Origin: a virus
Virus record (IMG/VR): IMGVR_UViG_3300045988_174823
DNA length: 64,000 bases
Reading direction: 5' to 3' (one strand)
The notes under the pieces are model-generated. The model was not told the origin of the DNA and made no database searches. It was given only the letters and a program-made list of their open reading frames with translations. Shown piece by piece: positions 4,805 through 62,682 of the stretch. The stretch's first letter is position 1. Each line of letters begins with the position of its first letter. The translations under genes and the position numbers were made by a program.

Positions 4805-5608
4805 TTACACTTCTACAGCGTCAAAGTCAATATCAAATTTCTTATATACAATGCGCAACTCGGGCACACCATTGATCGGCTTCTTCTTTTCATCAACACG
4901 AGCGTTAAGCGGCCAACGCTTCAAGATGATATCATGCGCACGTTGAACGCGCTCACGACGTTCGTACACATCCTGGAGACCGCCACCTTGTGTAGCTTCC
5001 TTGTTCATCTTACTCTGGAGCAAGAACCGTACGAATCGCGCATACACGATGCCGAGATACATACATTTTAACGAATAGTCGATATCACATTTCAACTCCA
5101 ACCGCTCATCAAAGTCCAACTCTAACGTGCGAAGACCCTTGAACACGATAAGGTGTGGAATACCGCCGTATTTGAAACGCGGACTAACGTCGATGCAATT
5201 CCAATCAAAAGCACTTTTGCCCATGGTGCCATATTCGAAGTCGGTTTTCATCACCTCTCGGTCGAATTCGTTGAAGAATTCAGCCAACTCTTCATGGGTT
5301 TTCAACGACAGTCCGCATTTGGCTTCACCGTCAATTGAGTAGAAGAAGTTGGCGATATCGTCATCCATCACCACAACGGGATACCCCTCGCGCAAGTAGG
5401 TATTCTTGCAGAAATTGACTACGTAGCTGTAGCCACGATTCGAGGCTGGAAGCACAATGAGGCGTTCGCGCTCATGCCCGGCTTCAACATATTTTTCAAC
5501 ATCCTCTTTTTCTACCACGATGTGGTAATCCACGCCGCCCTTTTTCAACAATCGAGTCGTGACGCATTTAGGGCGGTTTTTAGACACGACAAAGAATTGA
5601 CAGTTCAT
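4805..5608 (-). CDS. GT-A-like glycosyltransferase candidate (DxD type), paralog-like to 23500-24315
   Basis: FFVVSKNRP strand, then VVVMDDDIANFF (DxD) about 85 aa later, and a C-terminal GGGLQDVY...RWP motif shared with ORF 23500-24315. The ATG at 5608 is preferred over the TTG at 5638 (3 nt after the upstream stop). Confidence 0.45.
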   Translation of the reverse strand: MNCQFFVVSKNRPKCVTTRLLKKGGVDYHIVVEKEDVEKYVEAGHERERLIVLPASNRGYSYVVNFCKNTYLREGYPVVVMDDDIANFFYSIDGEAKCGLSLKTHEELAEFFNEFDREVMKTDFEYGTMGKSAFDWNCIDVSPRFKYGGIPHLIVFKGLRTLELDFDERLELKCDIDYSLKCMYLGIVYARFVRFLLQSKMNKEATQGGGLQDVYERRERVQRAHDIILKRWPLNARVDEKKKPINGVPELRIVYKKFDIDFDAVEV

Positions 5609-5610
5609 AC

Positions 5611-6291
5611 TCAAAATGGTAAGTCGCCCTCGTACCAAATTTCCTCAGGCGGGTTCTGTTCTATAAAACGTTGATAATTGTCCAGTGTACTTTCTAACGA
5701 TGGATAAAACCTCATGAACAACTCCCACTTAACGTCAAACATATCATCACACGATACGCGGCGTTTCATCAGTAGGCTTTCGCTATTATAGCACTGCACG
5801 CAGACCTGACGACGGCCTCGTAGTACGTACGAATAGGGAAAGTCGCGATAGTATTCCGCACCAGACGCTGTATTATACACCACATCATGGATAAACTGGT
5901 TGAACGGGTGTCCTGCGCCGAGAGGTGCCAGTAACGTATAACCGGGATTGCGGTGCATAAACTTCCGCAAATGATCGCGAAGCGCTTGTTCGGCGAAATT
6001 AAGGCCGTCATTCCCGAATTTGGCGCGTAAGTACGTATAGACGCTCTCATAATTACAGTCCTTGGAATGGGCCTGAAAATCGCTACAACGGACATTTTCT
6101 AACTCCAGGTCCAGACAATCCATGGCTATACCCAGAAAATTGTACAGAAGCCGCTGCTCTGAAACGCGCTTTGGGTCGCTATCTACAGTAAGCACCCGAA
6201 CGTCATATTCGGGTGCTACTAAAACGTGACAAGCACTCATCAGGAGATCACCCGCGTGTGGCTCGACACAGAGGTATTTTATTTTTCCCAT
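5611..6291 (-). CDS. LmbE/PIG-L-family deacetylase-like protein
   Basis: N-terminal VEPHAGDLLMSA (compare AHPDD, with His/Asp spacing conserved) and a later GAGHPFNQFIHD (compare HPDH). Overlaps the upstream gene by 13 nt. Confidence 0.4.
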   Translation of the reverse strand: MGKIKYLCVEPHAGDLLMSACHVLVAPEYDVRVLTVDSDPKRVSEQRLLYNFLGIAMDCLDLELENVRCSDFQAHSKDCNYESVYTYLRAKFGNDGLNFAEQALRDHLRKFMHRNPGYTLLAPLGAGHPFNQFIHDVVYNTASGAEYYRDFPYSYVLRGRRQVCVQCYNSESLLMKRRVSCDDMFDVKWELFMRFYPSLESTLDNYQRFIEQNPPEEIWYEGDLPF

Positions 6292-7238
6292 GGCCGTTTG
6301 TATATCTTCTCGACGCAGGGGCCGTCCTTCGATACGTCCTCAGCCATACGGCGAATTTCTGGCGTGATAGGCGGGAGCGTTTTCTTACCCATCTTATCAG
6401 GCAGGAAACCGACACGGACGCTGACATGTGTACACCCCTGACACGGACGGAACCGACGATCGTTGTTGTACAGCATCACGCGGGCAGCATGAAAGCGCGG
6501 ATGGTTCCAGAGGTCTTCGATAGGCATGTCGTGGATGTTGGCGATAGGGTACTCGCCGCGAAAGTCGTCGCAGCACAAGCACACCTGGCCGTTCCAACGC
6601 ACATCCAGTTCGCGGAACGGAAAAGTACATCGTTTGTTGTTGAACGAGTCGTCGAGCGGGAACGCTGCGCCACAGTGGTTAGCCAGACGACGCGTCATCT
6701 TGTTGGTATCGTCTTCGGCGATAGGCGGCAACAGACAGATACGGCGGCCCTGCTTGGGGTAGTAGTACGGAACGCCCGGTTCCAGCGTAACGACGTTGTA
6801 TTTCTCGATGTCGATTTTCTCGACGAAATTCCAGTCACCCTTAGCCGTATAGCAGTCCACCAGAATATCATTCATGCCGGCTTCAAAAAGACGGTCTAAA
6901 TATTCCGACGTATCCTTGGCGTGGTTCATACCGTACCCGTTGCTGTACATATGAAATACGGCTTTGGGCAGGTGTTTACGGAACGTAGCCACGATGTCGA
7001 TGAATGCGGGGTTGAGCGTCGGTTCGCCGTGCATAGCGAATACGAACTTACATTTCCACCCTACGCGGGCTACCTCTGAAGCGATACGCTCGGCGGTTTC
7101 AACGGTCATGAAATTCCACGGCTTAGTGCCTTTTTCGCGCATGCCGTGGAGACCGCAAAACGAACAACCCAGATTACACCCCTCCGTCGGTTCAATCTGC
7201 ATAGTGAACGGAGGGTCTTGTACGATTTTGTTTTTCAT
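6279..7238 (-). CDS. radical SAM enzyme with C-terminal Cys-rich (SPASM/twitch-like) domain
   Basis: EGCNLGCSFCG (CxxxCxxC) and HGEPTLNP. C-terminal CLCCDDFRG...RPCQGC. The ATG shares one nt with the stop of the MuF-like gene. Confidence 0.8.
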   Translation of the reverse strand: MKNKIVQDPPFTMQIEPTEGCNLGCSFCGLHGMREKGTKPWNFMTVETAERIASEVARVGWKCKFVFAMHGEPTLNPAFIDIVATFRKHLPKAVFHMYSNGYGMNHAKDTSEYLDRLFEAGMNDILVDCYTAKGDWNFVEKIDIEKYNVVTLEPGVPYYYPKQGRRICLLPPIAEDDTNKMTRRLANHCGAAFPLDDSFNNKRCTFPFRELDVRWNGQVCLCCDDFRGEYPIANIHDMPIEDLWNHPRFHAARVMLYNNDRRFRPCQGCTHVSVRVGFLPDKMGKKTLPPITPEIRRMAEDVSKDGPCVEKIYKRPWEK

Positions 7239-15551: not shown

Positions 15552-15836
15552 TTAGCGTGAATATACGTAGGTCTTACGGTCAGCCCACACGAAATTATAA
15601 CTCATATCCCCCTGAGGATACTCGGTAATGGTAATACCATCAGCAGTGGTTTCCCGCTCGATGCGCCATCCTGCCTGCTGTTGACCTGTGCCAATAGGCG
15701 CATAACCGCGGTAGATAACGTCGCCCCCTGAGGCGTCAACAATCGGTTTCGGCATAGCATCGCTCAGCAATTGGACAATGGGCGCGGTGTTTTTCTCGTT
15801 ACTCGTCATGGTGTATTGCTTTTTGTAAGTATTCAT
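15552..15836 (-). CDS. hypothetical protein
   Basis: 94-aa ORF immediately after the portal gene. Start uncertain (alternative ATG at 15809). Confidence 0.45.
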   Translation of the reverse strand: MNTYKKQYTMTSNEKNTAPIVQLLSDAMPKPIVDASGGDVIYRGYAPIGTGQQQAGWRIERETTADGITITEYPQGDMSYNFVWADRKTYVYSR

Positions 15837-17574
15837 CGAATGCAGCTACGAGAGGATTGGACTCGCGTGCCTTCATAGTTTCTTCTTGATCACCCTCAGC
15901 GTAAAGGTCAAACGGATTTCCTGGCTGAGCGGTATCGTCTTCTTCCTCTTCGTCGCCAGCCACGGGTTGATCAGCAGGGCCTCCAGCTTCCATCCCCATA
16001 CCAGCAGCCTCTTCAAACGGATTGCCTCCGCCCATACCGCCCATTGCGGCCTGTTGCTGTTGTTGCTGCTTGGCGCTGATGGCTTGCTGTATAACAGAGT
16101 TTTCGATAGTATCGCCACCCTTTTCTTCGCCGATAGCCGGGAGGTCCCACTTCTCGCGAATTTCGTCCACGGTCTGGAAAGCCTGGAGACGTTTGATGTC
16201 CATATCCAGTTCCTCAGAGATGGTCATTCCGTTGAGGCCCATGAATACGAACTCGAAGTCGGGGTTGATTTGCTCGACGATGAACTTGTTAACCTTACGT
16301 TGGATGAATTTCAGCATCGGGTAAAGACCCTTGTCCTTCGACTGCTCCATGCGCTGCTTTTGGCCGTCGCCGAACGTTAGGCCACTGCCATTGGAACGCG
16401 AAATATCCCAGCCAATTTCCGTAGGGTCAATGCAGAATACTGCACAGGCGATTTTGATCAGATATTCCATCCACGAGTTATACTCCATATCGCGGTTGTT
16501 CTTCTGAAGGTCAACCCAGTCGATATCTCCCTCAACGACAGGCGTCTTCCATGACTGCATAACACCCGATATCATGGCCTGCCATTGCTGCTTGAACTGC
16601 TGAAGCGAGGCTTCGTTCACGTTACCTTTGATACGCAGAAGACCTTTCGGAGCCGAACCCTGTGAGAAGAAGCGGCGGTTGTACTCGTCGCCCCAAAGCA
16701 TCGATGTCACAACGTTGATTAACTCTTCCAACTCAGAGTTTCCGTAACCGTTAGCGTAAATCGACGTGGTCGGATTGCGAATTCCAAAGCACAACTCCCA
16801 TGGGTAGAACTGCGCTACCTTGGCCGTCTGGTACACCTGGACGTAGGCCGGATAATAGCCATCAACCTTAGGTCCCCAGTTCTGGCGATCGTCCATCATC
16901 GCTCCTTCAAAGTAGGGGTTGTTGTACTCGCCATCGAAATACGATTCCGCCAGGCGGAATGTAGCGGCATCAACGGCCTGGAAGCGGACCAGTTTGCCGC
17001 GGCGGTTGCGAATGCACTCAAACGTCATCTGATCGAACGTTAGCGAGTCGTCCACAATCTTACGTATAAATTCGTCAAACTCGTCGCCGTCCCACATAGC
17101 GGTATCGCCACAGTTGAGGATGAAGTCGGTGATGGAAGACGCAATTTTGCGGTCCTGCGTGTCCATCTTCTGCTCTTGGCCGAACTTAGGCTTGCGTCGA
17201 ATAACAAATCCCGTTGAATAGCGGTCGGCCTGCGGTTCGGCGAAGTCAGCTATCTGGTTTTTACGGGTCTTGATAATCGAATTAATAATGGGGGTGCGAC
17301 TCATCCGGCGTAACGTTTCGTACGAAAGCGAAAACGGCTTATCCTTATATCCTAAAAACGAGTTGAACTCCAAAGGATCGATCAGATATGCCTTCGGGGC
17401 AACGTTAGCAGGCTTGTGTTGCTGGTTTAATATTTCAGCAGCTTTGAGTATATCAGACGGGCTCTCGCTGCGCATCGCACGCTCTAACAACAGCGATTTG
17501 CGTATCGTCAAAGCCTGCATGGCGCGTTCCACCGATTCCAATCTTTCTTTCACACCGGACATAATTGTTTTCAC
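15799..17574 (-). CDS. portal protein
   Basis: 591-aa ORF. GYGNSELEELINVVTSMLWGDEYNRRFFSQGSAPKGLLRIKG and its surroundings are portal-like. Poly-Q plus an acidic C-terminal tail. The track start is GTG; an ATG alternative lies at 17562. Confidence 0.75.
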   Translation of the reverse strand: MKTIMSGVKERLESVERAMQALTIRKSLLLERAMRSESPSDILKAAEILNQQHKPANVAPKAYLIDPLEFNSFLGYKDKPFSLSYETLRRMSRTPIINSIIKTRKNQIADFAEPQADRYSTGFVIRRKPKFGQEQKMDTQDRKIASSITDFILNCGDTAMWDGDEFDEFIRKIVDDSLTFDQMTFECIRNRRGKLVRFQAVDAATFRLAESYFDGEYNNPYFEGAMMDDRQNWGPKVDGYYPAYVQVYQTAKVAQFYPWELCFGIRNPTTSIYANGYGNSELEELINVVTSMLWGDEYNRRFFSQGSAPKGLLRIKGNVNEASLQQFKQQWQAMISGVMQSWKTPVVEGDIDWVDLQKNNRDMEYNSWMEYLIKIACAVFCIDPTEIGWDISRSNGSGLTFGDGQKQRMEQSKDKGLYPMLKFIQRKVNKFIVEQINPDFEFVFMGLNGMTISEELDMDIKRLQAFQTVDEIREKWDLPAIGEEKGGDTIENSVIQQAISAKQQQQQQAAMGGMGGGNPFEEAAGMGMEAGGPADQPVAGDEEEEDDTAQPGNPFDLYAEGDQEETMKARESNPLVAAFDEYLQKAIHHDE

Positions 17575-17599: not shown

Positions 17600-17923
17600 T
17601 CAACACAACAGTTTCAAAATGTCGTTCCGCGCTGTTTTACGAATTATCAATGCCTGATGAAGAAGGTCGCCCCATACCGCTATCTGGTAACCATTCCACG
17701 TGTAATAATCCGTTTGATCGTCGTACGAGCCATTCCATTCACCGTCGTGGCGTATGTCAGCGACGAGGCGTTTAAAACGCGCTGTTTCTTCGGTGGTAAG
17801 GGGTGATATGAAAGTGCCGACGACTACTAATCGTGCGGCACTTGTGGAAAGATCATCGGCCAAAATCTGAAAGTCGATGCCCATAAAATCGCCCGTTTCC
17901 AACGGCGTGTGAAAGGTTATCAT
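17600..17923 (-). CDS. hypothetical protein
   Basis: 107-aa ORF, 4-nt overlap with the upstream gene. Confidence 0.5.
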   Translation of the reverse strand: MITFHTPLETGDFMGIDFQILADDLSTSAARLVVVGTFISPLTTEETARFKRLVADIRHDGEWNGSYDDQTDYYTWNGYQIAVWGDLLHQALIIRKTARNDILKLLC

Positions 17924-18930
17924 TTGCCTATCAATTTACAAGCTCTTGGTTCAAATGTAGAGCGTTGTTTACCTTCACCAATCTTCATTTTCCAGTACTT
18001 TTGATACTCACACAGCCACATTTCCACCTGGTGAAGTGATATCTCGCCCGACGGCGTGACGTAATACCCCGATTCAAGTTTGTGCCAGTGTAGGTACGGA
18101 AAATCGCCAAACGAAGATAACGCTGCCTGTGCCTCATCACGCAGGCGATATATACCGTCAATTTGACGCTTCAACGATGGGAACACCAACCGCAGCCCTA
18201 TGGACGCACCAGGCCCCACATTGGTATAGTCATCCTGGGTAAAGTGCATGAAACGGCGATAGGTATAGCGCGGTATGTAGGTGAAGTCTTGGTAGAATTC
18301 GTGAGCGATAAATGTCGCCGACGAAGGTAACTCCTGAAGGAACTTGATAATCTGCCCAGGATCGGTAGCCGTCAACACCGTCCGCATCAGTTTACCTAAC
18401 TTACGATGAAGCGTAGGCACAACCAAATGCGTGTAGCAGTAGTCGCGCGGTTTTCCAGGTGTGGCCATCGAATTGATGAGGTAGGCCGTGGTGTAGGGGT
18501 TGTTGCCTGTGGCACGGTACGACGTTATCATTTCCGCAAAGCGGTCCTCGTCGTATTGGTTATAATCCGGAATGCCCGCTCCCCAACCGTACTTTTCACG
18601 AGCATATTCAAACGTTTCAGGGTTGTTAAAATACCGGAACACCATCATCTTCCAAACCAGATTCGTCAGCGTTAATTCGTCATCCAGCAAGATATTACGT
18701 ATCTGCCACTGCGAATTACGATCCAGTTCACGATACACATTGGTGAATTTGTAATCGCGTAATATAGGATCATCAGTCCACGGACGCGGTTTCTGATCCA
18801 GGAACCGTCGCTTCCATATCATTTGGCGCTCAAACATCGTGCGGAAGAACTCGTGATAGTGTTCCTCGCTGACGTCAAGTGCGGCGTCAGGTAATTTATC
18901 AGCCCAAGGGTAATGATCAAATTTCGCCAT
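17920..18930 (-). CDS. aGPT-Pplase / 5-hmdU-DNA-kinase helical-domain-like protein (DNA base hypermodification candidate)
   Basis: 336-aa all-alpha-looking ORF. WKRRFLDQKPRPWTDDPILRDYKFTNVYRELDRNSQW matches my recollection of the conserved N-terminal motif of these families. Not verifiable here. Confidence 0.4.
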   Translation of the reverse strand: MAKFDHYPWADKLPDAALDVSEEHYHEFFRTMFERQMIWKRRFLDQKPRPWTDDPILRDYKFTNVYRELDRNSQWQIRNILLDDELTLTNLVWKMMVFRYFNNPETFEYAREKYGWGAGIPDYNQYDEDRFAEMITSYRATGNNPYTTAYLINSMATPGKPRDYCYTHLVVPTLHRKLGKLMRTVLTATDPGQIIKFLQELPSSATFIAHEFYQDFTYIPRYTYRRFMHFTQDDYTNVGPGASIGLRLVFPSLKRQIDGIYRLRDEAQAALSSFGDFPYLHWHKLESGYYVTPSGEISLHQVEMWLCEYQKYWKMKIGEGKQRSTFEPRACKLIGK

Positions 18931-19282
18931 TTTGTTTACGATAAGTTCTAATCAACAATTCACGCCGTGCCTCCGTGCTTTTTCCTACCAAATGCCGCAA
19001 CGCGGCGTCCGTAATCTTCATCAACGGACGCTTAGGGGCATTTACAAGTCGCGTTTCAGGCACGCCGAGGTTTACTCTTATGCGTTTACCTCGAATCGGT
19101 TTAAGGGACTCTGCAGCGATTAATGGACAGTAGTCGTTACCGTGAAACGAACGTATCACAAAAGTCGTCCGACCCCATACCTCGGGGTCTGCTACGATAT
19201 CGCCTATTTTGAAATATCTCCATGCGTTCATACAGTTAAAAACTTTGGCCCCGAAACGCTTACGAATCGGAGCCGTTGTCAT
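18917..19282 (-). CDS. hypothetical protein
   Basis: 121-aa ORF overlapping the upstream gene by 14 nt. Confidence 0.5.
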   Translation of the reverse strand: MTTAPIRKRFGAKVFNCMNAWRYFKIGDIVADPEVWGRTTFVIRSFHGNDYCPLIAAESLKPIRGKRIRVNLGVPETRLVNAPKRPLMKITDAALRHLVGKSTEARRELLIRTYRKQNGEI

Positions 19283-22092: not shown

Positions 22093-22383
22093 TCAACAAT
22101 CCATCACCAAATTACCTTTCAACTCCAATTCGTACAACCGTTCGGCATCAGGTTTGGCATAGCAGAATATCAGCTTACCACCACCTGCACACGCCAACGC
22201 TTGGCGATACACCTCCTTTATACGCGCGAATTCCTCACTGCGATAAAAATCATAATCGCTAACACACAACTCCCACCACCGCTCTTGATGAGACGCCCAG
22301 GCTATGACACCTGGGCGTTCGGCTTCGATACGCTTTACAGCGGCTAATAGTAACAAGGTATATTTCTGGCGATCGGCTTTCAT
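22093..22383 (-). CDS. hypothetical protein
   Basis: 96-aa ORF with an ATGA overlap with the upstream gene. Confidence 0.5.
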   Translation of the reverse strand: MKADRQKYTLLLLAAVKRIEAERPGVIAWASHQERWWELCVSDYDFYRSEEFARIKEVYRQALACAGGGKLIFCYAKPDAERLYELELKGNLVMDC

Positions 22384-22976
22384 AATGTAGCATCTTCCTC
22401 GCCGAGAGAGCGTGCCAACTCCACCAACAAACGGACGTGCACGTGTTCGTCGGCAACGATCTTATTAATGAGTTGGATAGCCAACGCGGAAGTTACAGTC
22501 GGCGTAGGGTTGTTGGCTTGAATACGCTGACTGAGTTTTTCATACGCAGAAATTGTGTCTTCTTCGGCGACGATATTAATCTGAACAGCTTCGGCTGCGC
22601 TTTTAGTCGTAATGTCCACTTTGGCTGCCGAAAATGCAGGTTGTGATACGTTACCCCCGATGTGGTTAATGAAGTCGCCTAATCGGTCGTAGTGCTTCAT
22701 CTCAGTAAGGGCGATGCCGAGGAACGTTTCGCCAATTTCGTCGAAGAGCATCCGCTGCTGCGTGTACTGGAGAATGGCCGTGAGTTCCGACGTGGGAGCC
22801 GTACCGACGTATGCCTTGTAGAACCACTCAGCCGGAACGCCGTCATCGGGTCTGGCCTTGGAAATATCAGGATAATCAACCGCGTTATTGGCGTAACGCA
22901 TCGACTCTACTAACGCGTCAGCCATCGCTTCGACGTTATCCTGTTTGGCGGGGTTATGTAAGAGAATCGTTTTCAT
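22380..22976 (-). CDS. ferritin-like di-metal carboxylate protein (Mn-catalase/CotJC-like four-helix bundle)
   Basis: Two E...ExxH pairs: SELTAILQY...LTEMKHYD and VAEEDTISAY...VADEHVHV. Confidence 0.6.
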   Translation of the reverse strand: MKTILLHNPAKQDNVEAMADALVESMRYANNAVDYPDISKARPDDGVPAEWFYKAYVGTAPTSELTAILQYTQQRMLFDEIGETFLGIALTEMKHYDRLGDFINHIGGNVSQPAFSAAKVDITTKSAAEAVQINIVAEEDTISAYEKLSQRIQANNPTPTVTSALAIQLINKIVADEHVHVRLLVELARSLGEEDATL

Positions 22977-22978: not shown

Positions 22979-23503
22979 CTATTTAATCGTTGAACCGAAC
23001 CCTCCGGCGTCGCGCATCGAAGGCGTCAACGTGTCGGTTTCCTCCACTTCAATATACGGCGCAGGGACGATGACCAACTGGGCTACAACGTCTCCTGCCT
23101 TAAATTCCTTGGTGCTCAGATTCACGTTTTGAGGCTTCATCCCCGCAACCTCACCGAAGACGTTGGAAAGTAATCCACAAACGCTCTTGAAGAACCTGTG
23201 AACCAGCGTAGGCAAATGCCACGTCTTCTTGTAACGAGCACGTATCGTGCCGCGGTAGCCAGGGTCGATAACCCCTGGAGCATTACACATCACCAGGTCC
23301 ATTTTTGAACAACGCGAATTCGGGACCAGCAACCCGCAATACCCCCTGGGAATTTCGACGGCGATGCCGGTATCGTATTCGATGTAATCTTCAGTTTCCT
23401 TTACGGTTACAGCCACGAGGTCCAGGCCGTTATCCTCACCACCAGGATGAGCATACGTCGGCAGTACGGCTTCAGGGTGTACTTTCTTGAATTTTACGGT
23501 CAT
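22979..23503 (-). CDS. dut: dUTPase (trimeric type) with a ~30-aa insertion between motifs III and IV
   Basis: Motifs NGLDLVAV, VPNSRCSK, GVIDPGYRGTI, GDVVAQLV and RDAGGFGSTIK. Confidence 0.85.
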   Translation of the reverse strand: MTVKFKKVHPEAVLPTYAHPGGEDNGLDLVAVTVKETEDYIEYDTGIAVEIPRGYCGLLVPNSRCSKMDLVMCNAPGVIDPGYRGTIRARYKKTWHLPTLVHRFFKSVCGLLSNVFGEVAGMKPQNVNLSTKEFKAGDVVAQLVIVPAPYIEVEETDTLTPSMRDAGGFGSTIK

Positions 23504-24315
23504 TTCTTGTATCCTTTTAAGTGTAATTTGACTTCTATCATTTCACGATCCTTCATCTCGCCACCCCAGTTGGTACACTTCTTGGTGCGGAGTGTGATGT
23601 ATTCAGGGAACGTTTCCCTTAAACGTTGTGACTCGGCGTTGGAGTTCTCGATAGTTCGGTACACAGAACAACCGCCAGCAGCGTTGGCTCCTGTCATTTT
23701 ATCGAACGAATACTGATACGAAACCACGTTATCCAACCCAGCACGACGCAGGCCACAAGCCAAGGCAAAATCCTCTTTTATAGGCCAATCACTGAACCTA
23801 ACAGGCTGGCTCAGATATTGCTCAATATTCAGCCCCCAAATGGAGAAGAACCGCCCATTAATTTGTACGTCGTGCGTCTTATCGCGGTTGAATGGCCTAT
23901 ACGAAAGAGCCGCCACGGCGTAGGTGTCCAACTGCTCCGCTACCCAGTCAAACATCATCGAATAGATGCATTCCTGGGCCTCGACGGTGAAATTGTCGTT
24001 GTTTACCACTACAGGGGTCTTGGCATCGTCTAAACGCAGTGAGAAAGACACGTTATCGTCTAAGAAAAAGACTCCGCCAAATCCCCTATCAGCGGCCTCT
24101 ACAACAATGTAGTCTCGTATGTCGCCTACACCGCGACATACCGTACTGTATTCCTCGATGGCGGCAACCTTACCGCCCCAGTTGCGTTGGTGAGCGGCCA
24201 ATTCGCCAGGGTGACAGAATACCGTTACGCGGCGACGGGCCTCAGGCGTTAGGCGCTGGAGGGTTTTCTGGCGGTCAATACGACCACGGGTGAATAGTGC
24301 TATCAGAGTTTTCAT
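23500..24315 (-). CDS. GT-A-like glycosyltransferase candidate, paralog-like to 4805-5608
   Basis: IALFTRGRIDR strand, VFFLDDNVSF (DxD-like), and a C-terminal AAGGCSVYRT...TFPEY motif shared with ORF 4805-5608. ATGA overlap with dut. Confidence 0.45.
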   Translation of the reverse strand: MKTLIALFTRGRIDRQKTLQRLTPEARRRVTVFCHPGELAAHQRNWGGKVAAIEEYSTVCRGVGDIRDYIVVEAADRGFGGVFFLDDNVSFSLRLDDAKTPVVVNNDNFTVEAQECIYSMMFDWVAEQLDTYAVAALSYRPFNRDKTHDVQINGRFFSIWGLNIEQYLSQPVRFSDWPIKEDFALACGLRRAGLDNVVSYQYSFDKMTGANAAGGCSVYRTIENSNAESQRLRETFPEYITLRTKKCTNWGGEMKDREMIEVKLHLKGYKK

Positions 24316-24334: not shown

Positions 24335-27052
24335 CTAACCTAACATATCGAATTTAAATCCGGTAGTCATACGCGACGCCGCCAAGTCGGCCAGCCAAAA
24401 CGACGACGAAATATCATCGTGACTACCGACACTCTCCAGCCCTTTTTCGGTAAAGGCAACGGAACCGAGGTCTTGGAAGATGAGGTCCTTGACCTGCTGA
24501 GAATAAACGTTACCTATCGGGATGTGGATTTTGCCGCGCTCGAACAACGTCGAAAGGTGCGGCCATCCGGTCTTCAGGTCGTACTTATCAATTCCCGTAG
24601 TGTGACCAATAACGGGCATACCCTCGGTGTCGGCTGTCTCGACGAATATCTGTTGGAATGTGTTATTCTCCATCACGATAAGGTCAGGCCGGAAGCGGGA
24701 GTTGATACGGCGCAGAACGTTCATCTGCTCGAAAAACTTGGCACCTTTTTCACGGTAGAGGTGCAACAGCCAGCGCTCGTCGGTCAATTCGTCAATACCC
24801 CATACGCTAAATACGGCGTAGTCGGCGCCGACGTTGGCTGAAATAGCGAAGTCGCACCCGACAACCACTTTAGAGAACTTAATGGGGAATTCTTCGCGCG
24901 AATCAACCAACGTGTAATTTTCCATCCGCAGTAGCGAACGCGTGAGGATTTCCATCGGGAAGATTGACGACTCGTTGGTAATCGGGCGACAAAGGTTCTC
25001 ACGCGAGAAGATGATTGAACCCTGGGTCTCCTTTTTATCCATCAGGTCCTTAAACGACCAACGCTGGGGCCAAAGGATTCGTCCGTCGGGGAAGATGGCT
25101 GGATACTCGATAACGAACCAACCGTTCTTGGTCTTCAGGTCGCCGTAAAGGTCTTCGGCGTGGAACGGCGTACCGACGACGATAATCTGGCCACCAGGTA
25201 CGAGCATATTCATGATTACGGAGTGGAAATAGTCGGTGGACTTATTTCGTTGGAGACTGGAGTAAATGACGTTGTCCTTCAAGCCGTCATCTACGATAAT
25301 CCAATACGGGTGAGCACCACGCACCGACGATCCAAAACCTTTTCCCGTCAAACGTGCTCCGTTACGGCACACGATATTGGTAGCCGACCAGTTGTTGGCT
25401 GTCGATTGGGGAAACAGCCGTTCCTTCAATATCTCGTTTTCCTCAATAGTGCCTTTCAGAATCTCCAAAAGGTCCACACTCTGTTGTAACGAGAACGAGA
25501 ACAAGAATCCGCGATTTGATGAAGCTGCCGCAGGTCGTTTCGAGTAGCGGGTGGTTGACGGCTTCTTGTAACGGTATAGCTGCCACGCGGCGTAGGCGTT
25601 GGAGAAATAGAACGAGTTGTGCGTAACCGTACCGTCACCCAGCACGAAGCGGTGGTCGCCGTCGGTGGTGATAGATATGTAGTCACCTTCACCCGCGGGC
25701 GTGATCTTCAACGACGATACCACCGTAGGGTGTACGCCGTCGATAGTGCCCCAGTCCTTGTGTGACGTCTTGGCGGCCCAGTCGGTTTGGACCTTTTTAC
25801 GAGCGATCTTTACTGGGATGCGGTCCAGTTCACCAGAAATAGTCACGCACCACGACGAATAGTCGCGGCCTAACGCTTTACAATACCGCGTTCCACCACC
25901 CATTCGGGTACAGAAGCCAAGGCTGTCGGCCAAGTTCTTCACGTCACACACCAACTGGTAGTTCGTATTACCGAAGTGATAGCCGCCCTGCCAATAGTTA
26001 CCGTCGGAATCGATCAACCCAGCCAACACCTGAAGACGAACTTCTTCGCTGTTGACGAGGTACTGCTCCGGAATGTGCTTATTGTAGAGCAGGTTGTAAC
26101 CCTTGAGCATCCTTTCCAGCGGGTTACGCTTACCGCGGCCACGAACGTCAATTCCAAGTGTCACTACCATACCATTTTGGCCATAGTGAAGCCCCAAGCG
26201 CTCGGCGTAAGAGTGTAAGTACTCACACACTTCAGGGTCGGCGGTGGTGATCTTCTGGTTGTTGGAGTTGCCGTCGCCTAACCAGTACCCAAGAAAATAT
26301 GGTTCCAACCCCACGGGCCGCGTGGGGTACTGCACTGCCACCTTGAAACCGCGGTAACGTTCCTTCACCCAGTTCGGGGTCTTGCTTAAAAGCGTCGGAA
26401 TATCAATATCCACTATCCGCTTCGACGCTGTAGCGATGGAACCGTTGCGGTCCTTCTCGATCAGCGTACAAATGTGGCGTGAGTTGACGGTGTGGCTATC
26501 ACCGCGCGACTGGTCGATACGGTACATCATCGAATCGTGGCCACGGCGCGTAGCAACCACGCGGCGGGGCTTAGAGTCGATGCCCATCAACAAGTCGCCA
26601 ACCACAACGTCTTCGACCTTTTTGATAGTTCCGTCGTACATTCGGACGGGGGTTCCGACGGCTTCGCACTTTCCGTGGTCACGCGCTGCGTTGATACACA
26701 ATTTCTTGTGGTTATGGACTAATTCACCCCATTCCAGGTGGTGCCACGACAGCTGGAAGTCAGGGATAACAGAGGTGATGAAATACGTCAAGTTGGCGCA
26801 TCGTAGGGTATCTTCTACGACGGCCGAAACGTTTTCTTCGTAGCGGGGTTTGAAGTCAATCGACGCGTCACCCGTGTACATAATACGATATGTGTCCTCC
26901 AACAGAGCGTCGAATATCGTATCAACGTCGTGTATATCGCCACTCATCATCTCATTCAACCCACGCTCGTCCATACCCTCGATTATTTCATCAACGAGGT
27001 CTAAACAAGCCAAACGGTGCGTAACCGAGGGTGCTGTAATCTGAGGTATCAT
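24335..27052 (-). CDS. terL: terminase large subunit interrupted by an intein in the Walker A motif
   Basis: Removing residues 129-479 gives NAARDHGK-SFYFS (P-loop). The remaining ~550 aa have a terminase-like layout. Confidence 0.8.
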   Translation of the reverse strand: MIPQITAPSVTHRLACLDLVDEIIEGMDERGLNEMMSGDIHDVDTIFDALLEDTYRIMYTGDASIDFKPRYEENVSAVVEDTLRCANLTYFITSVIPDFQLSWHHLEWGELVHNHKKLCINAARDHGKCEAVGTPVRMYDGTIKKVEDVVVGDLLMGIDSKPRRVVATRRGHDSMMYRIDQSRGDSHTVNSRHICTLIEKDRNGSIATASKRIVDIDIPTLLSKTPNWVKERYRGFKVAVQYPTRPVGLEPYFLGYWLGDGNSNNQKITTADPEVCEYLHSYAERLGLHYGQNGMVVTLGIDVRGRGKRNPLERMLKGYNLLYNKHIPEQYLVNSEEVRLQVLAGLIDSDGNYWQGGYHFGNTNYQLVCDVKNLADSLGFCTRMGGGTRYCKALGRDYSSWCVTISGELDRIPVKIARKKVQTDWAAKTSHKDWGTIDGVHPTVVSSLKITPAGEGDYISITTDGDHRFVLGDGTVTHNSFYFSNAYAAWQLYRYKKPSTTRYSKRPAAASSNRGFLFSFSLQQSVDLLEILKGTIEENEILKERLFPQSTANNWSATNIVCRNGARLTGKGFGSSVRGAHPYWIIVDDGLKDNVIYSSLQRNKSTDYFHSVIMNMLVPGGQIIVVGTPFHAEDLYGDLKTKNGWFVIEYPAIFPDGRILWPQRWSFKDLMDKKETQGSIIFSRENLCRPITNESSIFPMEILTRSLLRMENYTLVDSREEFPIKFSKVVVGCDFAISANVGADYAVFSVWGIDELTDERWLLHLYREKGAKFFEQMNVLRRINSRFRPDLIVMENNTFQQIFVETADTEGMPVIGHTTGIDKYDLKTGWPHLSTLFERGKIHIPIGNVYSQQVKDLIFQDLGSVAFTEKGLESVGSHDDISSSFWLADLAASRMTTGFKFDMLG
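25616..26668 (-). mobile_element. intein (351 aa) with LAGLIDADG homing endonuclease
   Basis: Starts with Cys (tgc, 26668-26666) and ends VTHN (aac, 25618-25616), followed by +1 Ser. Contains LGYWLGDGNS and LAGLIDSDGNY. Confidence 0.8.
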
Positions 27053-27602: not shown

Positions 27603-28028
27603 TTTGTTTTACAGTTTCTCGTTTTATAGTTGGAAACAACTCGCCGCGGAAACGCACCATAGTCTGTGCCAAATACGCGTACACGTCTTCAGGTCGGGCG
27701 TAGAGATCGTGCAGCGGCAACCTCGCCATGTATTTCAGTTCGTCGTCCTCCGACAGGCGATACACCACGTGAAACGCATACCGCCCGTCTTCAGGGTCGC
27801 GCATAACACCAACGACCTTGACCTCGATGATTTCGATAACCCCTTCGTTGGCCGACAGTATATAGCGCGAATCGCCAACGTTAGGCAGCAGATTGCCCTT
27901 GAGGCGCGTGGCCTTTCCGTTCTGGTTGACGTCCCGCGGGGGGTTACGCGTTTTTGCTTTCCGGCGCCGCTCTTCAGGCGGTTGTAGGCTTGATTGGCGT
28001 CGAATACCTTTTCAGCCAACGAGTCCAA
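27592..28028 (-). CDS. hypothetical protein encoded in two frames joined at a C6 run (frameshift, homopolymer error or decayed gene)
   Basis: Frame A (28028 down, TTG start) and frame B (ends 27592) both look protein-like. Frame B has no start codon upstream of 27804. Adding one C to the C6 run (plus-strand G6 at 27938-27943) fuses ...KQKRVTPPRDVNQNGK.... Confidence 0.35.
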
Positions 28029-28073
28029 ATCAGGCGTAATTTGACCGACAGGCTGGTAGCGGTAACGAATCGC

Positions 28074-31526: not shown

Positions 31527-31539
31527 CGTGTTAAGGATT

Positions 31540-56313: not shown

Positions 56314-56961
56314 TTAAATTATATCGTTTTGTAAGTCATTAATGGCTCCTACCCATACGTACATCAGGCGTTCTTGCTCACAAATATCCGCCGATACACA
56401 CGTACTTTGTAACGTTGAAACCGCCCTACGATAGCTATCCTTACAATACGGTAATAAATCCAAAGGCCAAGAGCGGTTTCCCATCCCCACCTCACGATGC
56501 AAGAAATACAACAACGCCATCCAATCGGCCACCTTTACAATCGCGTGAGCAACGTCGTAATACGGTGCATCCTTTGAAAGCGTTTTGGCAATTACCGAAT
56601 CGTCTCCGAATTCGGCCATTACCTGGTGCGCAACAAACTCGTCCAAAACGTTACGCAGTTCCGACCCGTTATAAGCGTTATATTTAAGTTCGTGGGTGAT
56701 ATCGCGACGCAGAATAGCCTCGTCGAAGTCATGCATCAGCGCCATCTTCAGCGTCTGATACTTGAACGTAGCCACCGTATTATTATCGTCCCCTCCAGGC
56801 CAGAGATAGTCCAGCAGGCACATCGTGAAGACCGATACCTTGTACGAATGTTGCGAAACGCTTTCCTGCTGGTGGCGGTCATACTCCAACCACTGCTTGA
56901 TGTTATCCAACCGCGCAAGATGATCGCGGTTGAAGAGTTTGATTAAATCATCCTTTTGCAT
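56314..56961 (-). CDS. HD-domain 5'-deoxynucleotidase (YfbR-like) candidate
   Basis: ESVSQHSYKVSVFTMCLL and MALMHDFDEAILRRDITHELKY parallel YfbR ENVAEHS... and ...HDASEVLTGDLPTPVKY. Confidence 0.55.
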   Translation of the reverse strand: MQKDDLIKLFNRDHLARLDNIKQWLEYDRHQQESVSQHSYKVSVFTMCLLDYLWPGGDDNNTVATFKYQTLKMALMHDFDEAILRRDITHELKYNAYNGSELRNVLDEFVAHQVMAEFGDDSVIAKTLSKDAPYYDVAHAIVKVADWMALLYFLHREVGMGNRSWPLDLLPYCKDSYRRAVSTLQSTCVSADICEQERLMYVWVGAINDLQNDII

Positions 56962-61464: not shown

Positions 61465-62682
61465 TTACAGGAGTTTATTGATTTCTGCGTTAGAAAACCT
61501 TGCCGCGAAGAAATTGCGAGCCAACATCAGGTAGTCCCACTTTTCTTCAACGGATACGGTCCCTGTGATACGGTCCATCAGCACAAAGCACGACTTCAGC
61601 AACGAATCACGGTCATCCTTATAGGCACCAATATTTCGCTTGTAGAAGACGTACACCTTCAACATCTGGTAAACTACCCAGAAATAGGTTGATTTCTCAA
61701 ATACGTAGTTCTCAAACCCGGCCTCGTCTTCCAAGATATTGCCTTTTGCGTATCGCACCGCCAAACGATTTATCATCTCTTCCATAAAGGCCGTTATTTC
61801 ACACAGGCGGTTTACCGGAACCTCCGATTCGAACTTAAAGTCCATCATATACGACATCGCTCCCTCGTAATACAAGCTGCGGCGCGTATTATTGGACACG
61901 AAAAGTTCGCTCATCTGCTCGGCGATATTATTCCATTCGTAGATATGGAGCGACTGCGAGTTGTGAGTCTGAACACCTAACTCTACCCCCAAGCAGAGGG
62001 ACATTACCTCCGTCAGGAACGAGAACTGAAAGATGTTCGTTGGTAAGCCCCAGTGGAGATCATTCGAACGGTTCTGGACCGTGGTAACGAGTTTCCCATC
62101 GCGGATTTTCAACATCACCATATCGTTACACGGCAAGTCCTTCGATTTCACGCCGAGGTCAAACTTAGGATTCCAAATCGACATCACAACCTGACGTGTT
62201 TCCGGGTCAGTGCTCAGCAGGCGAATGGCTTCCTTCACCTGATCCAGGCCCGGGTCCATCGACTCACCCTCGGACGAAATACCCCAATGACGCAAACGCC
62301 AGCCGTAGGGAGCGTGGAACGTAACGCCATTATCGGAAAAATCGACCATCTTGCCGTTGAAGATCTTCAGGAACTCGACGTCCTTACGGCCCGTAACTAT
62401 CCACATAGCTTCAGCCAGCAGGAAGAAGATGTTGATGTTGCGGGCATAGCCGCCTACACAGCGGCGATACGGGTTGTTGATTATTGTCTTGACATCGAGC
62501 AGTTCGCGTACCTTACCAGCACGAGAATCCTGAAGCGGGAGCGTCGTCATCATCGTGCGGTTGATATACGGATACACCTCGGCGAACGAACCGCGCGGAT
62601 CGGTAAATACCACACGCCGCCGATAGTCAAACTCAAAACGGCTAATGCCTGTTTCGGTCTGGGAAATTGATTCTTGCTTCAT
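61465..62682 (-). CDS. thymidylate synthase-family enzyme (ThyA or dUMP hydroxymethylase) with ~130-aa C-terminal extension
   Basis: Motifs TRQVVMSIWNPKFDL, DLPCNDMVMLKI, VQNRSNDLHWGLPTNIFQFSFL and SLHIYE. Confidence 0.8.
   Translation of the reverse strand: MKQESISQTETGISRFEFDYRRRVVFTDPRGSFAEVYPYINRTMMTTLPLQDSRAGKVRELLDVKTIINNPYRRCVGGYARNINIFFLLAEAMWIVTGRKDVEFLKIFNGKMVDFSDNGVTFHAPYGWRLRHWGISSEGESMDPGLDQVKEAIRLLSTDPETRQVVMSIWNPKFDLGVKSKDLPCNDMVMLKIRDGKLVTTVQNRSNDLHWGLPTNIFQFSFLTEVMSLCLGVELGVQTHNSQSLHIYEWNNIAEQMSELFVSNNTRRSLYYEGAMSYMMDFKFESEVPVNRLCEITAFMEEMINRLAVRYAKGNILEDEAGFENYVFEKSTYFWVVYQMLKVYVFYKRNIGAYKDDRDSLLKSCFVLMDRITGTVSVEEKWDYLMLARNFFAARFSNAEINKLL

What the first reader, a model, noticed from the sequence alone, without database searches (positions are those of the whole stretch)
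17920..18930. aGPT-Pplase / HMUDK-helical-like protein next to the portal gene
The 336-aa protein carries PWTDDPILRDYKFTNVYRELDRNSQW. I recognise this as the hallmark N-terminal motif of the alpha-glutamyl/putrescinyl-thymine pyrophosphorylase and 5-hmdU DNA kinase helical-domain families. These enzymes act on 5-hmdU already in DNA. No P-loop kinase domain is fused, and none sits adjacent. If the call is correct, this is the post-replicative step of a thymidine hypermodification route, unusually located inside the morphogenesis block.
Basis: inference. Interest (0 to 1): 0.7.

Follow-up and report, generated by a model that had tools for sequence, protein, structure and literature searches.

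The report
Orphan thymidine-hypermodification paralog in gut phage
The gene is a genuine member of a phage protein family (HMUDK_hel) that always travels with enzymes that decorate the thymine-like base 5-hydroxymethyluracil in viral DNA but whose own job has never been worked out, and here it occurs in an abundant human-gut phage that lacks the kinase and amino-acid transferase it normally accompanies.

Summary
Observation confirmed: window 17920-18930 (-) encodes a 336-aa protein carrying the quoted motif. It matches Pfam PF18723 HMUDK_hel over its full length (E 4.5e-52) and matches no aGPT-Pplase/AADT model. An AlphaFold model (pLDDT 90.5) is closest to the SP10 gp186 kinase-helical fusion, phiRSL1 and PhiW-14 HMUDK_hel proteins. 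Pplase1 comes next, then the solved amino-acid:DNA transferase PUGT (8Z2M/8Z2N).

The family is the uncharacterised "second DNA-glycosylase-like paralog" of thymidine-hypermodifying phages (ViI gp160, M6 gp55). M6 gp55 is not needed for the published in vitro reaction.

The ~99-kb human-gut phage encodes:
- an SPO1-type dUMP hydroxymethylase
- a dut-like enzyme
- an HD 5'-deoxynucleotidase
- two TAGT glycosyltransferases
- a radical SAM/SPASM enzyme

No 5-hmdU DNA kinase or AADT was detected anywhere in the genome. Cultured phage PhiJL001 has the same kinase-less trio.

Across 79 related contigs the gene keeps its place just upstream of the portal. Its neighbours vary: kinase+AADT+methyltransferase, methyltransferase only, TAGT, or rSAM.

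Cys307, Glu308, Lys311, Arg35, Asn64, Arg67, Asp70 and Phe207 are essentially invariant, which points to an enzyme. The reaction is unknown.

Verdict: correct family call, a new member in an informative kinase-less context, with the mechanism only inferred.

The parts
17920..18930 (-). HMUDK_hel family protein (336 aa), the finding itself. All-alpha, HhH-glycosylase-like fold. Invariant residues: R35, N64, R67, D70, F207, G239-P240-G241, E303-x3-C307-E308-x2-K311-Y312.
   Evidence: Pfam PF18723 E 4.5e-52. AF2 pLDDT 90.5. Foldseek BFVD/PDB. Conservation over 136 representatives.
18917..19282 (-). Small conserved upstream ORF (121 aa as listed; homologs are 104 aa, so the start is probably at 19231). 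It overlaps the HMUDK_hel start by 14 nt. Function unknown.
   Evidence: Homolog immediately upstream of HMUDK_hel in nearly all loci with >=52% identity. 13 homologs, no Pfam hit. AF2 model unusable, pLDDT 53.
17600..17923 (-). Small downstream ORF (107 aa) with a 4-nt ATGA overlap, lying between HMUDK_hel and the portal. Function unknown.
   Evidence: Conserved only in close relatives. No Pfam or PHROG hit.
15799..17574 (-). Portal protein. Its linkage to HMUDK_hel is conserved across the lineage.
   Evidence: PF04860 E 2.5e-20. Portal homolog 1-5 kb downstream of HMUDK_hel in ~all of 79 loci.
61465..62682 (-). Thymidylate-synthase homolog (405 aa), most likely a dUMP hydroxymethylase that supplies 5-hmdU.
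   Evidence: PF00303 E 2.5e-23. Best phage hits are SPO1 gp29-type enzymes, 45% identity. Cys185 and Asn216 are conserved with E. coli ThyA C146/N177.
22979..23503 (-). dUTPase (dut)-like / dCTP-deaminase-like protein, for pyrimidine pool reshaping.
   Evidence: PF00692, PF22769. NCBIfam dut E 1e-20.
56314..56961 (-). YfbR-like HD 5'-deoxynucleotidase, a candidate dTMP/dNMP-clearing enzyme.
   Evidence: PF12917 E 6.9e-11. NCBIfam 5'-deoxynucleotidase.
23500..24315 (-). TAGT-family DNA glycosyltransferase 1.
   Evidence: PF20691 E 1e-13.
4805..5638 (-). TAGT-family DNA glycosyltransferase 2. It is highly divergent from TAGT-1.
   Evidence: Precomputed PF20691 on the identical gene in L011-L013. 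phrog_842 beta-glucosyl-HMC-alpha-glucosyltransferase E 2e-17. No BLASTP similarity to TAGT-1.
6279..7238 (-). Radical SAM / SPASM (twitch)-domain enzyme. It is adjacent to TAGT-2 here and adjacent to TAGT or HMUDK_hel in relatives.
   Evidence: PF04055 + PF13186. Generic rSAM hits in NCBIfam. Neighbourhoods in L004 and in L187, L191, L150, L165.

Best explanation
The ORF encodes a standalone member of the HMUDK_hel family (PF18723). This family is the uncharacterised helix-hairpin-helix, DNA-glycosylase-like paralog of the amino-acid:DNA transferases (AADT, also called aGPT-Pplase2). Every well-studied 5-hmdU-hypermodifying phage carries one (ViI gp160, M6 gp55, PhiW-14 gp72, SP10 gp186 C-terminal half).

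Shown here:
- family membership
- fold relationship to AADT
- active-site-grade invariant residues
- a 5-hmdU-producing genomic background
- absence of the kinase and AADT
- a conserved position upstream of the portal, within a slot whose other DNA-modification genes are swapped between relatives

Inferred: after replication and before packaging, the protein binds phage DNA through its HhH hairpins and flips out a 5-hmdU (or glycosylated/derivatised 5-hmdU) residue against Phe207. It then uses Cys307, helped by Glu303/Glu308/Lys311, to add to C6 of the pyrimidine. This activates the C5-methylene substituent, the same chemical logic as AADT. The co-substrate would differ from an amino acid, because the Lys that holds glycine in PUGT is Glu211 here.

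In this phage it would act as an accessory or tailoring enzyme of a kinase-independent thymidine modification route. That route is built from a dUMP hydroxymethylase, two TAGT glycosyltransferases and a radical-SAM enzyme. The exact reaction is not known. One attractive candidate is conversion of residual 5-hmdU-type residues to another base such as thymine.
For: Family and fold:
- PF18723 full-length hit, E 4.5e-52.
- Confident model, pLDDT 90.5.
- Foldseek BFVD: SP10 5-hmdU DNA kinase fusion E 5e-15 (TM 0.78); phiRSL1 and PhiW-14 HMUDK_hel proteins; then Pplase1 (1e-6 to 1e-5); then AADT (0.02, prob 0.99-1.0).
- Foldseek PDB: the only credible hits are PUGT 8Z2N/8Z2M (prob 0.91-0.98), followed weakly by Ogg/AlkA.

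Active-site mapping:
- The one hhalign alignment between diverse HMUDK_hel and AADT profiles pairs F207 with the stacking Trp, D215 with the invariant Asp, E303 with metal-binding E243, and C307 with catalytic C247. It pairs E211 with the glycine-binding Lys (residue roles from PMC11472151, and PMC13458397).
- Invariance over 136 representatives at <=50% mutual identity: R35, N64, R67, D70, F207 and G241 are 136/136; C307 and K311 are 135/136; E308 is 133/136.

Genomic context:
- SPO1-type dUMP hydroxymethylase, dut, HD nucleotidase, two TAGTs and an rSAM.
- PhiJL001 has the same HMUDK_hel + TAGT + dUMP-HMase trio and no kinase or AADT genome-wide.
- Divergent members of the same portal lineage carry kinase-AADT-FkbM methyltransferase-HMUDK_hel-portal.
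- Other relatives place TAGT, FkbM methyltransferase, rSAM or dut directly next to HMUDK_hel.
Against: - No biochemical activity has ever been reported for any HMUDK_hel protein. M6 gp55 could be omitted from the reconstitution of N-alpha-GlyT without effect (PMC8989533).
- The sequence-profile link to AADT is weak on its own (hhalign probability 3%, E 0.014). Structural similarity is modest (TM ~0.4).
- I could not inspect model coordinates, so spatial clustering of the invariant residues is untested.
- Without a kinase the leaving group at C5 would be poor (hydroxyl or glycoside).
- The metal-binding Thr of AADT is not conserved (M/H/N at position 304).
- The base composition of the virion DNA is unknown.
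- Kinase/AADT absence rests on HMM and Pfam sensitivity. Many small ORFs in the genome have no annotation.
Confidence: 0.55

Rival explanations
1. Non-catalytic recognition module. The protein only binds or flips 5-hmdU in DNA. It then recruits or directs whichever modifying enzyme the phage carries: the kinase in SP10, YuA and ViI, and TAGT or methyltransferase here. It may set which fraction or which sequence contexts get modified.
For: - It is named and known as the 'helical domain' fused to the kinase in SP10 gp186.
- It lies directly after the kinase gene in YuA.
- It is the constant partner of changing enzymes in the survey.
- It is dispensable for the in vitro kinase + AADT reaction.
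Against: Near-absolute invariance of a Cys-Glu dyad plus Lys, three Arg, Asn and Asp over very divergent sequences is more typical of catalysis than of binding alone. The Cys aligns with the proven nucleophile of AADT.
Confidence: 0.2
2. Thymine-forming or 'clean-up' enzyme. The paralog converts 5-hmdU-derived residues that were not hypermodified into thymine (or back to a neutral base), via the Cys-generated exocyclic methylene followed by reduction. This is a specific version of the catalytic model.
For:
- AADT plus borohydride yields thymidine from 5-PmdU (PMC8989533), so the chemistry is accessible to this fold.
- The family is present in hypermodifying phages and reported absent from SPO1, which keeps 5-hmdU (PMC5889632).
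Against: - No reductant-binding domain or cofactor motif is evident.
- No experiment has addressed it.
- In kinase-less phages there is no phosphate leaving group.
- The idea is purely inferential.
Confidence: 0.1
3. Canonical aGPT-Pplase/AADT-type step. The protein transfers an amino acid or polyamine onto kinase-activated 5-PmdU.
For: Same superfamily fold and a conserved Cys/Glu. The dUMP hydroxymethylase is present.
Against: - No hit to PF18724.
- No 5-hmdU DNA kinase anywhere in the ~99-kb genome.
- The glycine-binding Lys is replaced by Glu.
- Relatives that do have a kinase also carry a separate bona fide AADT next to HMUDK_hel, so the two are not redundant.
Confidence: 0.06
4. Packaging protein (terminase small subunit), as homologs are annotated in some Klebsiella ViI-like phage records.
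For: - Position just upstream of the portal.
- Weak hit to phrog_800 'terminase small subunit', E 1.4e-5.
- GenBank annotation of the homolog in phage phi1_146041.
Against: - The annotated 'TerS' homolog is itself a strong PF18723 protein (E 2.7e-81), so the label is most likely an annotation artefact.
- The fold is HhH-glycosylase-like, not TerS-like.
- In YuA and PhiJL001 the gene sits among nucleotide-metabolism genes, far from the terminase.
Confidence: 0.03

Closest known systems
HMUDK_hel family (Pfam PF18723): SP10 gp186 C-terminal half, PhiW-14 gp72-type, ViI gp160, M6 gp55 / YuA gp14, phiRSL1, PhiJL001 gp19
   Same: Full-length profile match. The same invariant residues (R35, N64, R67, D70, F207, GPG, ExxxCExxKY). 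The same predicted fold (TM up to 0.78). Association with a dUMP hydroxymethylase.
   Different: Only 23-30% identical to any catalogued phage homolog. In SP10 the domain is fused to the 5-hmdU DNA kinase. In YuA and M6 it follows the kinase gene within a kinase/AADT/PLP/rSAM cluster. Here, as in PhiJL001, there is no kinase or AADT in the genome. The partners are TAGT glycosyltransferases, and the gene sits next to the portal.
Amino-acid:DNA transferases (AADT / aGPT-Pplase2 / PUGT; Pfam PF18724; PDB 8Z2M, 8Z2N; M6 gp51, ViI gp247, PaMx11 gp46)
   Same: Same overall two-bundle all-alpha, HhH-containing fold (best and only credible PDB match). Aligned aromatic (F207 vs Trp146), Asp, Glu303 vs Glu243, and Cys307 vs the catalytic Cys247. 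A similar C-terminal helix motif (VEMWLCEYQK vs VETVLCKWK).
   Different: No sequence-level family match (no PF18724 hit; hhalign probability 3%). The co-substrate Lys150 is Glu. The metal-ligand Thr244 is not conserved. The invariant N-terminal set (R35, N64, R67, D70, R99) is different. No kinase provides the 5-PmdU substrate.
aGPT-Pplase clade 1 proteins
   Same: Intermediate structural neighbours (Foldseek E 4.5e-6 and 4e-5, TM ~0.6). Some homologs of the target are labelled this way in GenBank.
   Different: The window protein gives no Pfam hit other than HMUDK_hel. Clade 1 is also functionally uncharacterised.
HhH-GPD DNA glycosylases (Ogg, AlkA, AGOG)
   Same: Weak fold resemblance and a GPG hairpin followed by a helix. 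This suggests DNA-backbone binding and base flipping.
   Different: Foldseek probabilities are only 0.04-0.25. The catalytic Asp/Lys arrangement of glycosylases was not identified. An invariant Cys is present instead.
T4-type and TET-associated 5-hydroxymethylpyrimidine glycosylation systems; base J
   Same: The surrounding pathway resembles these systems: a hydroxymethylpyrimidine is made, then glycosylated on DNA by TAGT-like enzymes.
   Different: Here the base is predicted to be 5-hmU made at the nucleotide level by a thymidylate-synthase homolog, not 5-hmC or TET/JBP-derived. None of those systems is known to need an HMUDK_hel protein.

Membership tests
HMUDK_hel (PF18723) | Significant full-length match to the family profile, above Pfam's gathering score | tested here: met
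   177.6 bits against a 25-bit cut-off, E 4.5e-52, residues 23-320 on profile positions 2-279 of 281.
HMUDK_hel (PF18723) | Family-invariant residues present (R35, N64, R67, D70, F207, G241, C307, E308, K311) | tested here: met
   All are present in the window protein. They are 133-136 of 136 conserved across representatives.
HMUDK_hel (PF18723) | Predicted fold matches known family members | tested here: met
   Foldseek BFVD: SP10 gp186 at E 5e-15 (TM 0.78); phiRSL1, Nodularia, Microbacterium and PhiW-14 HMUDK_hel proteins at E 4e-11 to 3e-7.
HMUDK_hel (PF18723) | Fusion to, or adjacency with, a 5-hmdU DNA kinase (the origin of the family name) | tested here: not met
   No Walker A motif in the protein. 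No PF18748-like kinase in the window or in the complete genome of a 97% identical relative. This is a contextual feature, not a requirement: most of the best 150 representatives are standalone proteins of ~290-350 aa, and PhiJL001 also lacks a kinase.
HMUDK_hel (PF18723) | Co-occurrence with a 5-hmdU source (dUMP hydroxymethylase) | tested here: met
   SPO1 gp29-like thymidylate-synthase homolog at 61465-62682 with Cys185 and Asn216.
AADT / aGPT-Pplase2 (PF18724) | Match to the family profile | tested here: not met
   No hit at E<=1. hhalign of the two families' profiles gives probability 3%.
AADT / aGPT-Pplase2 (PF18724) | Catalytic Cys with a Glu four residues upstream on the C-terminal helix | tested here: met
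   E303-x3-C307 aligns with E243-x3-C247 of PUGT in the hhalign alignment. Residue roles from PMC11472151.
AADT / aGPT-Pplase2 (PF18724) | Metal-ligand Thr next to the Glu, and the co-substrate-binding Lys (K150) and Trp (W146) | tested here: not met
   Position 304 is M/H/N/F across the family. The Lys position is Glu211 (112 E, 23 Q). Trp is replaced by the invariant Phe207.
AADT / aGPT-Pplase2 (PF18724) | Amino-acid or polyamine transfer to 5-PmdU in DNA | not testable with these tools
   Needs an in vitro assay with 5-hmdU DNA, kinase, ATP and candidate donors, analysed by LC-MS.
Canonical thymidine hypermodification pathway (Lee et al. 2018/2021) | dUMP hydroxymethylase + 5-HMUDK kinase + AADT in one genome | tested here: not met
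   Only the hydroxymethylase is present. Kinase and AADT are absent at E<0.1 using HMMs that include divergent seeds from the same phage lineage and in Pfam scans of ~80 proteins.
Terminase small subunit | TerS fold/profile and adjacency to the large terminase | tested here: not met
   Only a weak partial phrog_800 hit, E 1.4e-5. The 'TerS'-labelled homolog is itself a strong PF18723 protein. The fold is glycosylase-like.

The most novel reading that the evidence does not exclude
HMUDK_hel is a kinase-independent, cysteine-dependent enzyme that works directly on 5-hydroxymethyluracil-type residues in DNA. It is the invariant core of a plug-and-play thymidine-modification slot upstream of the portal in a large, abundant clade of ~100-kb human-gut phages. 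Together with two TAGT glycosyltransferases and a radical-SAM enzyme, it yields a glycosylated (base-J-like or further tailored) thymidine hypermodification not yet described in phage DNA.
Probability: 0.25. Interest if true: 0.8.

Novelty: new member of a known kind. Interest (0 to 1): 0.55.

Why it matters
HMUDK_hel is the one gene family shared by all studied thymidine-hypermodifying phages that still has no function. It was expressed in the original reconstitutions but proved unnecessary for the steps solved so far.

In two unrelated phage lineages (this gut clade and PhiJL001), the gene persists with a dUMP hydroxymethylase and glycosyltransferases while the kinase and amino-acid transferase are absent. 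This separates its role from the kinase route and gives a cleaner system in which to find its activity.

It also predicts that a widespread, abundant group of ~100-kb human-gut phages carries 5-hmdU-derived, probably glycosylated, DNA. That would affect restriction and CRISPR susceptibility, sequencing and library-preparation bias in gut viromics, and the search for new DNA-modifying enzymes useful as tools.

Tried and rejected
- **Close DNA relatives:** a megablast search of 7 kb around the gene against 50,697 catalogued phages found none.
- **PDB by sequence:** nothing at E<0.6.
- **hhalign against a single AADT sequence:** not significant. With two diverse profiles it was still weak (probability 3%) though residue-consistent.
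- **Kinase search:** Walker-A scan and phmmer with YuA gp13 found nothing. A better HMM built from five kinases also found nothing.
- **First AADT HMM:** built from YuA-like sequences only, it missed divergent AADTs that Pfam later revealed. I rebuilt it; it still found nothing in the window or the rest of the genome.
- **The 583-aa P-loop protein (3018-4769) as a substitute kinase:** rejected. Its homolog coexists with a bona fide kinase in L168, at the same structural-block position.
- **NCBIfam:** no model for the family.
- **ORF121 structure prediction:** pLDDT 53, unusable.
- **Chryseobacterium phage MA9V-3 (closest catalogued portal):** no HMUDK_hel gene in the portal region or in the first 45 kb of the record.
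- **Promoter and terminator scans:** promoter-like sites were at chance level and terminator-like sites were not clearly enriched.
- **5-hydroxycytosine / arabinosyl-cytosine systems (PMC13326640):** considered and set aside, because the thymidylate-synthase homolog carries the uracil-specifying Asn and is closest to SPO1 gp29.
- **Literature searches:** no paper assigns a function to HMUDK_hel, gp160 or gp55.
Full report
**1. The observation**

The window has one long ORF at 17920-18930 on the minus strand: 336 aa, ATG start, containing PWTDDPILRDYKFTNVYRELDRNSQW. Its start overlaps the stop of a small upstream ORF by 14 nt. Its stop overlaps the start of a 107-aa downstream ORF by 4 nt (ATGA), so the three genes form a translationally coupled unit. 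The portal gene follows (15799-17574; PF04860 E 2.5e-20). Nearly all genes in the window are on the minus strand.

**2. Family assignment**

- hmmscan against Pfam gives a single meaningful hit: PF18723 HMUDK_hel ('5-hmdU DNA kinase, helical domain'). It scores E 4.5e-52 and 177.6 bits against a 25-bit cut-off, and covers profile positions 2-279 of 281.
- No aGPT-Pplase/AADT model appears, even at E<=1.
- PHROGs places it in phrog_2396 (unknown function). There is also a weak partial hit to phrog_800 'terminase small subunit'.
- PDB sequence search finds nothing, and NCBIfam has no model.
- phmmer against 1.84 billion cluster representatives finds 3133 relatives at E<=1e-3. Nearly all of the best 150 are standalone proteins of ~290-350 aa.

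**3. What the family is, according to the literature**

Table 3 of Lee et al. 2018 (PMC5889632) lists two DNA-glycosylase-like paralogs in each thymidine-hypermodifying phage:

| Phage | Paralogs |
|---|---|
| PhiW-14 | gp72 / gp109 |
| SP10 | gp186C (fused to the kinase gp186N) |
| ViI | gp160 / gp247 |
| M6 | gp51 / gp55 |

- Lee et al. 2021 (PMC8989533) showed that M6 gp51, ViI gp247 and PhiW-14 gp109 are amino-acid/polyamine:DNA transferases. These are clade-2 Pplase, now Pfam PF18724 'ADDT'. They act on kinase-made 5-PmdU through a Cys-C6 adduct and an exocyclic methylene.
- Reactions lacking gp55 still worked.
- My Pfam scans show that YuA gp14 (the M6 gp55 orthologue) is HMUDK_hel (E 8e-59). 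YuA gp13 just upstream is the kinase (PF18748). YuA gp10 is the AADT.
- No paper in the library assigns a function to the HMUDK_hel paralog.

**4. Structure**

- An AlphaFold2 model built on 42 homologs is confident: pLDDT 90.5, pTM 0.88. It is all-alpha with one beta-hairpin.
- Against viral predicted structures, the best match is the SP10 kinase-helical fusion (E 5e-15, TM 0.78). Next come HMUDK_hel proteins of phiRSL1, Nodularia, Microbacterium and PhiW-14 phages, then 'Pplase1' proteins (E 4.5e-6 and 4e-5), then AADT proteins (E ~0.02, prob 0.97-1.0).
- Against the PDB, the only credible matches are PaMx11 gp46/PUGT, 8Z2N and 8Z2M. Their probabilities are 0.98/0.97/0.91, the alignments are full-length, and TM is 0.37-0.44. 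HhH glycosylases (Ogg, AlkA) trail at probabilities <=0.25.

The three families therefore form one fold superfamily, with HMUDK_hel furthest from AADT.

**5. Residue-level comparison**

- In an alignment that includes YuA gp14, PhiJL001 gp19 and a ViI-like Klebsiella phage protein, the invariant positions include P50-W51-T52, F62, N64, R67, D70, R99, F207, D215, G239-P240-G241, E303, C307, E308, K311 and Y312.
- Over 136 near-full-length representatives:

| Residue(s) | Conservation |
|---|---|
| R35, N64, R67, D70, F207, G241 | 136/136 |
| C307, K311 | 135/136 |
| E308 | 133/136 |
| R99 | 132/136 |
| E303 | 125 E + 10 Q |

- In PUGT, thymine is clamped by Cys247 and Trp146. Glu243 and Thr244 hold a metal, and Lys150 and Trp146 hold glycine (PMC11472151). 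The Cys and the Glu/Thr are essential (PMC8989533; PMC13458397).
- hhalign between a diverse HMUDK_hel profile (A4) and an AADT profile (A5) is weak statistically (probability 3%, E 0.014). Its single alignment nevertheless pairs F207 with the Trp, E211 with the Lys, D215 with an invariant Asp, E303 with Glu243 and C307 with Cys247.
- The helices read VEMWLCEYQK here and VETVLCKWK in AADT.
- I read this as retention of the nucleophile and base-stacking apparatus with a changed co-substrate site. This is inference, because I could not inspect coordinates.

**6. Genomic background**

Pfam, PHROG and NCBIfam scans of about 60 window proteins found the following:

| Coordinates | Protein |
|---|---|
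| 61465-62682 | 405-aa thymidylate-synthase homolog |
| 59760-61463, 56977-59079 | split DnaE-type polymerase |
| 56314-56961 | YfbR-like HD 5'-deoxynucleotidase |
| (several) | RecA-, Mre11- and Rad50-like proteins and a UvrD helicase |
| 22979-23503 | dut-like protein |
| 22380-22976 | ferritin-like protein |
| 23500-24315 | TAGT glycosyltransferase 1 |
| 4805-5638 | TAGT glycosyltransferase 2, very divergent from the first |
| 6279-7238 | radical SAM/SPASM enzyme, next to TAGT-2 |

- The thymidylate-synthase homolog is closest to the dUMP hydroxymethylases of the classic 5-hmU phages (SPO1 gp29, SP8, SP82G), at 45% identity over residues 54-248.
- 5-hmdU synthesis is therefore likely, though not proven.

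**7. The rest of the genome**

- Exact copies of window proteins occur on 87-99.5-kb human-gut metagenome contigs.
- Using IMG/VR loci from one 97.5-kb contig whose HMUDK_hel gene is 97% identical to the target (L015, L039, L114, L192), I covered the ~33 kb outside the window. It holds DnaB, a DEAD helicase, small ORFs and tail/baseplate genes.
- Kinase HMMs (five seeds, including kinases from the same phage lineage) and AADT HMMs (YuA-like plus divergent seeds) find nothing at E<0.1 in the window or the rest of the genome.
- The only unexplained Walker-A protein (3018-4769) has a homolog at the same place in a relative that also has a real kinase. It is therefore not a replacement kinase.

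**8. Comparative survey**

Seventy-nine IMG/VR loci encode relatives with 33-98% identity. Scanned with local HMMs and Pfam, they show:

- A homologous portal gene lies 1-5 kb downstream of HMUDK_hel in almost every locus.
- The small upstream ORF is conserved in relatives with >=52% identity.
- The other genes in the slot change between relatives:
  - L168, L174/175 and L189/190 carry kinase, AADT (PF18724 E 5e-6 to 6e-18), FkbM-type methyltransferase, HMUDK_hel, then portal.
  - L162 and L172 also have a kinase.
  - Many relatives with 55-58% identity have an FkbM methyltransferase directly after HMUDK_hel.
  - L151 and L154 have a TAGT directly after it.
  - L191 and L187 have rSAM, or rSAM + dut, directly before it.
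  - L176-184 have a thymidylate-synthase homolog 3.4 kb downstream.
- In this sample kinase and TAGT never co-occur, within the limits of +/-10 kb.

Independently, the cultured phage PhiJL001 (same virus family as YuA/M6) has HMUDK_hel gp19, TAGT gp22 (E 2.7e-53) and dUMP hydroxymethylase gp24, but no kinase or AADT in its whole 63.6-kb genome.

HMUDK_hel is therefore tied to 5-hmdU modification in general, not to the kinase route.

**9. Interpretation**

- Most likely, the protein is an enzyme that flips 5-hmdU-type residues out of phage DNA and performs Cys-dependent chemistry at C5. It would be expressed with late genes, so that it acts after replication and before packaging.
- Its exact reaction is unknown.
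- Three alternatives are weighed in the rival section: a non-catalytic recognition module, a thymine-forming clean-up enzyme, and a canonical transferase.
- A packaging role is unlikely. The 'terminase small subunit' label on homologs appears to be an annotation artefact.

**10. Lineage and novelty**

- The portal is 37-41% identical to those of Chryseobacterium phage MA9V-3, SPO1-like Bacillus phages and Bacteroides DAC phages.
- MA9V-3 has no HMUDK_hel in the portal region or the first 45 kb of its record.
- No catalogued phage is close at the DNA level.
- The family is known, so this is a new member. What is new is the context: a kinase- and AADT-less genome in an abundant gut phage clade, and the swap-in/swap-out slot around a constant HMUDK_hel.

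Noticed in passing
window 56977-61463 (-): The DnaE-type DNA polymerase III alpha gene is split into two ORFs (59760-61463: PHP + N-terminal part; 56977-59079: finger/HHH part). A small GIY-YIG (SegE-like) endonuclease ORF at 59272-59772 separates them. In close relatives a different 250-aa NUMOD3 endonuclease occupies the same gap (L008-L010).
   Followed up: partly
window 24335-27052 (-) and 7238-9268 (-): There are two intein-containing proteins. One is 905 aa with a Hint domain and a LAGLIDADG homing endonuclease. The other is 676 aa with an intein splicing domain and a DUF559 (Vsr-like) endonuclease. The host (extein) proteins gave no Pfam hit. One of them could be the unidentified large terminase.
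   Followed up: no
window 4805-7238 (-): A second cluster that looks like DNA modification: radical SAM/SPASM enzyme, an unknown 226-aa protein, and a second TAGT-type glycosyltransferase. It lies inside the structural gene block. In relative L004, rSAM and TAGT lie next to dut and the ferritin-like gene instead.
   Followed up: partly
window 3018-4769 (-): A 583-aa protein with a mid-protein Walker A motif (GGAGIGKS at residue 218). It has no Pfam hit, only phrog_1250 (unknown function). It is conserved together with the following ~790-aa protein in distant relatives (L168: 513 aa, GKGGLGKT at residue 199). No terminase large subunit was recognised anywhere in the window.
   Followed up: partly
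L168 1311-4596; L174 107-5263; L189 5303-10933: Divergent members of the same portal lineage carry a complete cassette upstream of the portal: P-loop kinase, AADT, FkbM-type methyltransferase, HMUDK_hel. The methyltransferase suggests an as yet undescribed methylated thymidine hypermodification. L189 has two kinase paralogs.
   Followed up: partly
L128, L129, L139-L144, L157, L169, L185 (about +1.1 kb from the HMUDK_hel start): In many gut-phage relatives with 55-58% identity, an FkbM-family methyltransferase (~349 aa) directly follows HMUDK_hel. No kinase or AADT lies within +/-10 kb.
   Followed up: no
L003 5956-7164 (Klebsiella phage phi1_146041) and phrog_800: HMUDK_hel homologs in ViI-like Klebsiella phages are annotated 'terminase small subunit', although they match PF18723 at E 2.7e-81. 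This is probably a propagated mis-annotation through PHROG 800.
   Followed up: yes
window 27589-32459: This is the only region with a run of plus-strand ORFs and a local reversal of GC skew (positive at 30-34 kb). It also holds the window's single tRNA (tRNA-Gln, 29288-29359, minus strand). It may be a divergent early/regulatory region or a replication origin.
   Followed up: no
window 22380-22976 (-): A ferritin/rubrerythrin-like protein is encoded between the dut-like gene and DUF7168. Its position next to dut and TAGT is conserved in relative L004. Its role is unknown; it could be a di-iron oxygenase rather than a storage protein.
   Followed up: no
IMGVR_UViG_3300029572_000001 (L016/L024, L047/L050, L118): A 199-kb IMG/VR contig carries two diverged copies of this phage's genes (99% and 92% identity to the helicase query). 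It is probably an assembly that concatenates two related genomes.
   Followed up: no
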